A stretch of 64,000 nt of DNA, taken from NCBI GenBank assembly GCA_964016885.1, contig OZ024760.1, positions 26,226,001 to 26,290,000 on the forward strand. Direction: 5' to 3'. Within the stretch, counting starts at the first letter, position 1, and every line of letters starts with the position of its first letter. Shown here one piece after another: positions 14,636-15,304 of this stretch. Position numbers and translations under genes: made by a program. The notes beneath the pieces are model-generated. The model was not told where the DNA came from. It ran no database searches and saw only the letters and a program-made list of their open reading frames with translations. Source of the stretch: Eledone cirrhosa. Its lineage: Eukaryota.

Positions 14636-15304
14636 CTGCGATTTCTTCCAAGATATCTCGGGGAATCAGAGAGTGGGTCACGGTCGGGTCGTTGGTTAGT
14701 ACTGGTCACTTCCCTATCGTACGGTGGTGGTCTGATTGGACGCCATTGGTAATTTCGAGTACACTGTTCACCCACTGTCCTCCTGCTCAAGCCATAGCGT
14801 GAGTCATAATCTCGCCAGTCATCGTGGTCGCGATCGTGGCCGCATCCCCCGTAAGTTTCGCATCCGTGATACCCGCCATCACCATGTCTGCCATCATGAT
14901 GCCTACCTCCGTGATGTCTACTTCCGTGACCTCTACCTCCGTGATGTCCACCTCCGTGATGTCCACCTCCGTGACCTCTACCTCCGTGATGTCCACCTCC
15001 GTGATGTCCACCTCCAGCAAGAGGTCCACCTCCATGGTGACGATTTCCGTGGTGACCTCCTCCTCCGTGCTGACCTCCTCCGTGCTGACCTCCTCCGTGC
15101 CGATCTCCATGGCGATCTCCATGGTGACCTCCATGGTGACGACCCCGATCTTGACCTCCATTGTAACCTGCACGGGTACCTCCGTGGAGATCAAATCGAG
15201 GTGTGCCACGTATGAAGTCGTCACCATATTCCTGCCTACGGGGCCCAAATCGACTAAATCTTGCGCTCTGATAGTCTTCCGCATCATGGTCAAATCTGCC
15301 TGAA
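14636..15304 (-). CDS. Exon 2: Gly/His-rich low-complexity domain ([11 protein letters not shown]...[15 protein letters not shown]...RYLGRNR)
   Basis: Pyrimidine tract plus TAG acceptor at 15305-15306; 669 nt stop-free in the frame of track ORF 14284..14790 extended upstream; donor CAG|GTATTT at 14635, with a duplicate at 14614; phase 2-2 fits both neighbours. Confidence 0.8.

What the first reader, a model, noticed from the sequence alone, without database searches (positions are those of the whole stretch)
14636..15304. Hidden Gly/His-rich exon fused to a periostin/TGFBI-like protein, ending in a furin-type site
Seen: a frame absent from the ORF track encodes about 220 aa with [14 protein letters not shown] repeats between the signal peptide and the EMI+FAS1 region. 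It ends in R-N-R-R immediately before FSVTFGG..WWTGPNVC. Established: RxRR is the furin consensus. Vertebrate periostin/TGFBI have no such domain. Gly/His-rich sequences act in metal binding, pH-dependent coacervation (squid beak His-rich proteins) and antimicrobial defence (GGH-repeat shepherins). Inference: a lineage-specific matrix protein with a condensing or metal-binding module, or a precursor that releases a free Gly/His peptide.
Basis: partly seen in the sequence, partly recalled or inferred. Interest (0 to 1): 0.75.

Follow-up and report, generated by a model that had tools for sequence, protein, structure and literature searches.

The report
Optional His-rich exon in octopod TGFBI
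An octopus-type gene for a periostin/TGFBI-like matrix protein has a real, spliced, probably optional exon adding about 230 glycine- and histidine-rich residues that would likely be cut off during secretion as a metal-binding peptide; the argonaut's gene model carries a related, larger insert.

Summary
The exon is real. It is exon 2 of a 16-exon, single-copy octopod TGFBI/periostin-like gene. One public run behaves as RNA, and its contig breaks fit splicing into 15304 and out of 14615. The exon is frame-symmetric. The break pattern matches a second, exon-skipping transcript (indirect), which would give 702 aa, like the 700-aa Octopus vulgaris protein. An Argonauta gene model has a ~760-aa insert at the same place, with a homologous tail (score 105; 0 of 5000 shuffles reach it), His/Gly repeats and terminal RxRR sites. 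A variable linker here is general in invertebrate homologues, but 0 of 30 complete ones share the His-rich repeat or the terminal site. It is not a squid beak HBP (no GHGxY) or a shepherin. Best reading: an optional, likely convertase-released, Zn/Cu-binding pro-segment. Cleavage, binding and tissue are untested. Three look-ups in this scan's earlier notes found nothing on it. Verdict: new variant of a known kind.

The parts
26414..26544 (-). Coding exon 1: start codon, predicted signal peptide and short spacer; ends in phase 2 (CAG|gtaag)
   Evidence: hydropathy; 46% identity to the O. vulgaris N-terminus
14615..15304 (-). Exon 2, the finding: 690 nt, phase 2-2, probable cassette exon; disordered Gly/His/Arg/Asp-rich segment
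14863..15147 (-). Gly/His repeat core, 95 aa (47% Gly, 29.5% His, 10.5% Arg), 15- and 12-nt tandem units
14710..14814 (-). Non-repeat tail motif conserved in the Argonauta insert (TRxYQWxPIxxPPYDRE)
   Evidence: 51% over 35 aa; shuffle test
14607..14655 (-). 21-nt tandem duplication giving two in-frame donors (after 14636 and after 14615) and two RNRR sites (first 14646-14635; second completed by exon 3)
5160..5210 (-). Exon 3 (FSVTF...WWT), start of the EMI/CROPT region
   Evidence: X3 contig covers it and continues into exon 4
4290..4415 (-). Exon 4 (GPNVC..., EMI-like)
880..974 (-). Exon 5 (ECC...GCP, end of the EMI-like region)
1..128 (-). Exon 6, first FAS1 domain; it and exons 7-16 continue about 27 kb beyond the window (G000:C21)

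Best explanation
Exon 2 is a spliced, probably optional exon of the octopod TGFBI/periostin-like gene that adds a predicted disordered Gly/His-rich pro-segment, which a furin-type protease likely cuts off at the RNRR sites, releasing a peptide that would likely bind zinc or copper. Shown: gene structure, reading frame, inclusion in RNA, homology with Argonauta. Indirect: skipping. Inferred: the long form (932 aa) enters the secretory pathway and is cut at residues 264-267 or 271-274. That leaves a matrix core almost the same as the skipped form (702 aa), plus a basic peptide of about 25-27 kDa. Its computed charge falls from about +34 at pH 5.5 to +9 at pH 7.4, so on leaving acidic granules its His pairs would become free to bind metal and cross-link or condense the surrounding matrix or mucus. 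Splicing would decide which cells co-secrete the peptide.
For: RNA-like run X3: exon contigs at depth 40-51 against 6 in the intron, ending at the splice sites, and an exon 3-to-4 junction. The contig breaks (27 nt and 3 nt) match exon-1-to-3 skipping, not a retained intron (28/2) or donor 14636 (14/16), taking k=31. Three Octopus-cluster proteins of 700-705 aa lack the insert. The Argonauta insert has the same position, a homologous tail (105 against a shuffle maximum of 82; 0 of 5000), its own His/Gly repeats, and RTRR/RFRR at the same boundary. A terminal R-x-[RK]-R arises in 2.1% and 1.5% of shuffles; Argonauta has 8 such motifs against 1.7 expected. Single-sequence AlphaFold: mean pLDDT 44, no fold (weak). 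Charges. Gly/His peptides bind Zn and Cu (PMC10698721, passages). A TGFBI-like protein occurs in octopus skin mucus and spermathecal fluid, isoform not stated.
Against: No cleavage, binding or tissue data. P1' is bulky Tyr or Phe, and the residues after the second site are hydrophobic; PiTou scores P1' volume and flank hydrophobicity and names an R-X-K-R site that is poorly cut (PMC3281273). Skipping rests on one RNA-like run and no read junction; another exon ending in CAG would break the contig the same way (my scan found one 36-nt candidate, at 8728). The depth ratio (51 vs 229) is not a measure of inclusion. The Argonauta insert is a genome gene model with no RNA seen, and is net acidic (-65). 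A search of 804-2559-aa proteins found no other long form among 2610 candidates. The three Cys of the exon are not conserved.
Confidence: 0.48

Rival explanations
1. The segment stays attached as a disordered, alternatively spliced binding arm (heparan sulfate, metal, other matrix proteins), the N-terminal counterpart of vertebrate periostin's spliced C-terminal domain.
For: Periostin's C-terminal domain is disordered, alternatively spliced, fast-evolving and binds heparin through a basic motif (abstracts and passages). Mollusc homologues have Arg-rich linkers here without a terminal furin site. The P1' residues are unfavourable.
Against: Basic sites sit exactly at the insert/EMI boundary in both octopods and in 0 of 30 other complete homologues; Argonauta has 8 sites against 1.7 expected.
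Confidence: 0.25
2. The long form is a precursor of a zinc-dependent antimicrobial Gly/His peptide released into mucus or reproductive fluids.
For: Core His content (29.5%) is close to shepherin I (28.6%), whose Zn complex is antifungal. The core is cationic. The protein is in skin mucus, and an in-silico screen lists it among proteins with potential antimicrobial peptides.
Against: No adjacent GGH repeats. The Argonauta insert is net acidic. The screen is a prediction, and the peptides are in a supplement I could not read.
Confidence: 0.13
3. The exon is the old variable linker of invertebrate periostin-like proteins, expanded by repeat slippage and tolerated because it is optional and cleavable; it has little function of its own.
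For: Position of the WW motif varies from residue 66 to 263 among 30 homologues. Repeat units differ between this species and Argonauta. A fresh 21-nt duplication and a Thr/Arg variant show rapid turnover. The Octopus proteins seen lack it.
Against: A 35-aa non-repeat motif and the His/Gly make-up are kept in both octopods, whose cores differ at 33% of sites; the frame is intact.
Confidence: 0.14

Closest known systems
Human TGFBI (PDB 5NV6) and periostin (PDB 5YJG)
   Same: Signal peptide, Cys-rich EMI/CROPT region and four FAS1 domains; via the 72%-identical O. vulgaris protein, E 4.9e-74 and 4e-54.
   Different: The optional disordered region is N-terminal, Gly/His-rich, one large exon and bounded by RxRR. 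In periostin it is C-terminal, built of several small exons and 13-aa repeats.
Argonauta hians 'TGFBI-like' GAB1610675.1 (1462 aa)
   Same: Core 67% identical; insert at the same position, with homologous tail, His/Gly repeats and terminal RxRR.
   Different: Insert about 760 aa with long acidic tracts and 8 furin-type motifs; gene model only, exon structure and RNA not seen.
Octopus vulgaris CAI9739244.1 and two Logan proteins (700-705 aa)
   Same: Core 72% identical; same clade in a quick tree (support 100).
   Different: No insert; they match the exon-skipped form. Whether the Octopus genome holds an unannotated exon could not be tested.
Squid histidine-rich beak proteins (HBP-1/2)
   Same: Secreted, disordered, Gly/His-rich, cephalopod.
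   Different: HBPs are stand-alone, hydrophobic, pI about 6, with GHGxY/GAGFA motifs, and were not found in O. bimaculoides. This segment has none of the motifs, is hydrophilic, and has pI 9.9.
Shepherin I (Capsella)
   Same: Gly/His composition; likely polymorphic Zn/Cu binding.
   Different: 28-aa plant peptide with six adjacent GGH repeats; here [10 protein letters not shown] pentamers in a matrix-protein exon; no homology shown.

Membership tests
TGFBI/periostin family | Four tandem FAS1 domains | tested here: met
   A window-gene exon hits PF02469 at E 1.2e-12; both octopod orthologues show 4 stretches and align over the whole 16-exon model.
TGFBI/periostin family | N-terminal Cys-rich EMI/CROPT region | tested here: inconclusive
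   WWxGPNVC...CC.G...GCP pattern present; PF07546 hits the orthologues at 17-19 bits, below the 25-bit cut-off.
TGFBI/periostin family | Signal peptide | tested here: met
   Hydrophobic core with 9-residue mean above 3; hydropathy only, SignalP not available.
Squid histidine-rich beak proteins | GHGxY or GHG[PVL][YH] pentapeptides, GAGFA spacers | tested here: not met
   0, 0 and 0 matches (definition from PMC11931252 section 13).
Squid histidine-rich beak proteins | Stand-alone hydrophobic protein, pI about 6 | tested here: not met
   Internal exon, 1.7% Ala, computed pI 9.9.
Shepherin-type antimicrobial peptides | Adjacent GGH tripeptide repeats | tested here: not met
   6 GGH, none adjacent, against six adjacent in shepherin I.
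Shepherin-type antimicrobial peptides | Zn-dependent antimicrobial activity | not testable with these tools
   Needs an assay.
Furin-type proprotein substrate | R-X-[K/R]-R in an accessible, flexible segment of a secreted protein | tested here: met
   RNRR at 264-267 and 271-274 after a predicted disordered segment (motif).
Furin-type proprotein substrate | Favourable P1'-P6' residues and actual cleavage | tested here: inconclusive
   P1' Tyr or Phe, read by eye against PMC3281273 Table 3; no predictor run; cleavage untested.
Cassette (skippable) exon | Both inclusion and skipping transcripts exist | tested here: inconclusive
   Inclusion supported by contig ends; skipping inferred from break positions and from insert-less orthologues; junction letters not displayed.

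The most novel reading that the evidence does not exclude
Octopods turned the periostin/TGFBI gene into a splice-switched two-product precursor: some tissues co-secrete a furin-released His-rich, metal- and pH-responsive peptide that hardens or condenses matrix. It would be an independent stand-in for the beak proteins that squids have and O. bimaculoides lacks, and in Argonauta it grew into a multi-peptide precursor with acidic and His-rich pieces that may serve the calcite eggcase.
Probability: 0.1. Interest if true: 0.78.

Novelty: new variant of a known kind. Interest (0 to 1): 0.5.

Why it matters
Periostin and TGFBI are well-studied matrix proteins whose variable part in vertebrates is the spliced C-terminal tail. 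An optional, cleavable, His-rich N-terminal module would be a parallel solution in octopods. It also offers a testable candidate for His-rich matrix chemistry in a group where squid beak proteins were not found. The insert is missing from the Octopus protein records seen here, so proteomic searches would not detect its peptides. The claim stays modest until cleavage and tissue are known.

Tried and rejected
Exon-2 tail against proteins of 402-2000 aa: 16 candidates, none at E<=1. BLASTP with composition adjustment missed the Argonauta match; an unadjusted alignment with shuffles found it. The exon's N-terminal 52 aa match Argonauta no better than shuffles (35 against a mean of 42). Pfam: no family for exon 2. 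ESM Atlas: no usable hit in two searches. No second copy of the tail or of a FAS1 exon in the own genome, so no donor gene for exon shuffling was found. No RNA holder was listed as such; X3 was judged RNA from its spliced contig. The overlapping 176-aa Thr/Glu/Val frame (14787..15317) was rejected by exon phase. GAA/GAT tracts in intron 1 resemble the acidic Argonauta insert but were read as microsatellite tails of repeats (by eye). The argonaut eggcase proteome preprint has 0 occurrences of six terms (fasciclin, periostin, ig-h3, FAS1, histidine, transforming growth) in its main text (supplements closed). The tree is the quick version; the careful search did not finish. Earlier-findings look-ups gave nothing relevant. 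No complex prediction was run.

Full report
OBSERVATION. The frame and repeats are there on the minus strand. The segment is 26.6% Gly, 15.3% Arg, 14.0% His and 9.2% Asp; the 95-aa core is 47% Gly and 29.5% His. Using the window and 80 kb of downstream genome, tblastn with two octopod orthologues placed the coding exons (the 51-nt exon 3 was set). The 16-exon model has GT-AG at all 15 introns and no internal stop: 932 aa with donor 14615, 925 aa with donor 14636, 702 aa without exon 2. Exon 1 ends, and exon 3 begins, in phase 2, so exon 2 can be dropped in frame. A FAS1 exon and the exon-2 tail each match once in the genome.

RNA EVIDENCE. Four runs hold the exon; none is on record as RNA. Three run through both exon boundaries like DNA. 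X3 has depth 40-51 on the exon and 6 on the intron; one contig stops at 15306, and another runs from 14952 to 14615 and then has 27 letters off the genome. On exon 3, X3 has a 1993-nt contig whose loose end is the start of exon 4, so X3 is spliced; 1990 nt from exon 3 reaches just past the modelled stop. That contig begins 3 letters before exon 3. Taking k=31 (my assumption; it also predicts the observed 15306 and 15277 ends), a 27/3 break is what results if exon 2 and exon 1 both splice to exon 3; a retained intron gives 28/2 and the 14636 donor 14/16. So inclusion via donor 14615 is well supported and skipping is likely but indirect: one run, contigs only, junction letters not shown. Depth (51 vs 229) points the same way, but the tool warns against ranking parts by depth.

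RELATIVES. A FAS1 exon found 10 proteins among 37 candidates. The two closest are an Octopus cluster (3 members, 700-705 aa, one named O. vulgaris, none with an insert) and Argonauta hians (1462 aa). The cores are 72% and 67% identical to the window's. The Argonauta insert (about residues 45-807) ends in RTRRFRRS. The window's 83-aa tail aligns to it with score 105; 0 of 5000 and 0 of 2000 shuffles reach that. Its His-rich part uses different repeat units, so composition rather than sequence is kept. A search of 804-2559-aa proteins with the Argonauta tail plus EMI region returned only itself among 2610 candidates.

HOW GENERAL IS THE INSERT. From the 150 best HMMER hits to the O. vulgaris protein plus one cluster member, 42 other proteins carry the strict WWxGPNVC-type motif. 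Twelve were dropped for lacking a signal-like start, leaving 30. In these the motif lies at residue 66-263 (median 127), often after Arg- or Gly-rich sequence. The peak His content in 40 residues is at most 15%, against 35% here and 50% in Argonauta; 0 of 30 have R-x-[RK]-R within 30 residues of the motif. One dropped fragment (P0078) begins with a short GGHH stretch. Of 10 looked up, 7 are named (four bivalves, two gastropods, one nemertean); the rest are unnamed, and no squid or Nautilus sequence was identified. A quick tree of 26 rows groups the window gene with the three octopod proteins (support 100). The insert is thus an octopod elaboration of an old variable linker, not a domain from nowhere.

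MECHANISM. Shown: structure, frame, inclusion, homology. Inferred: secretion, cleavage at RNRR 264-267 or 271-274, and release of a basic peptide whose computed charge drops from +34 to +9 between pH 5.5 and 7.4. Cleavage would leave nearly the same core as skipping does, which suggests that the purpose of the long form lies in the released or transient segment. A terminal site is uncommon by chance in either species (2.1% and 1.5%), though shared ancestry makes the two not independent. Against efficient cleavage are bulky P1' residues. I put metal- and pH-dependent matrix or mucus conditioning first (0.48), then an attached arm (0.25), near-neutral expansion (0.14) and antimicrobial precursor (0.13).

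COMPARISON. It is a member of the TGFBI/periostin family by FAS1 architecture. In organisation it resembles periostin's spliced, disordered tail, but at the other end of the protein. It fails the motif tests for squid HBPs and shepherins, which lowers membership, not the chance that it binds metal.

LITERATURE SEEN. Passages: PMC11431876 (supplement unreadable, and it may list TGFBI isoforms and peptides), PMC12691039, PMC9068888, PMC10698721, PMC6032426, PMC3281273. Passages plus abstract: PMC2824660. Passages plus section 13: PMC11931252. First part of the text: PMC3083689. Abstract only: PMC10552548. Term search only: bioRxiv 2021.07.10.451900. Nine searches (listings only, apart from the papers above) showed no description of a His-rich N-terminal insert in a cephalopod periostin or TGFBI. 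The library lacks most subscription papers.

VERDICT. A real, apparently undescribed, probably optional exon in a known gene family, with support from a second octopod. New variant of a known kind; interest 0.5.

Noticed in passing
window 14777: G>C variant (+ strand) in runs X3 and X4 but not X1 or X2. It changes a Thr codon to Arg in exon 2 and turns a dibasic RR into RRR.
   Followed up: no
L003:7142-7225 (G000:C21 about 26213142-26213225, minus strand): A partial duplicate of the 3' half of exon 14 with its donor site lies just after exon 10. It was not needed for the model, and its use was not checked.
   Followed up: no
window 7363-10801, minus strand: Non-LTR retrotransposon in intron 2, frame split into three ORFs; RVT_1 at E 5.6e-19.
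   Followed up: partly
window 45214-47601 (+), 51682-52683 (-), 54129-54704 (-): Related retroelement-like ORFs upstream of the gene; one has a sub-threshold GIY-YIG hit (E 0.002). The Penelope-like label is recalled, not tested.
   Followed up: partly
window 24299-25278 and 19466-20226: Tandem arrays in intron 1: 123-nt unit x8 (96% alike) and 52-nt unit x14.6.
   Followed up: no
window about 1400-3700: A roughly 590-nt unit repeated head to tail about four times in intron 4 (seen by eye; identical translated segments).
   Followed up: no
window 15235: A second possible in-frame acceptor 69 nt inside exon 2. The RNA-like contig runs through it to 15306.
   Followed up: partly
P0004 residues 72-260: The Argonauta insert has an acidic Glu/Asp block flanked by RYRR and RSKR sites, like a polyprotein; it could matter for calcite eggcase biology if it is expressed.
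   Followed up: no
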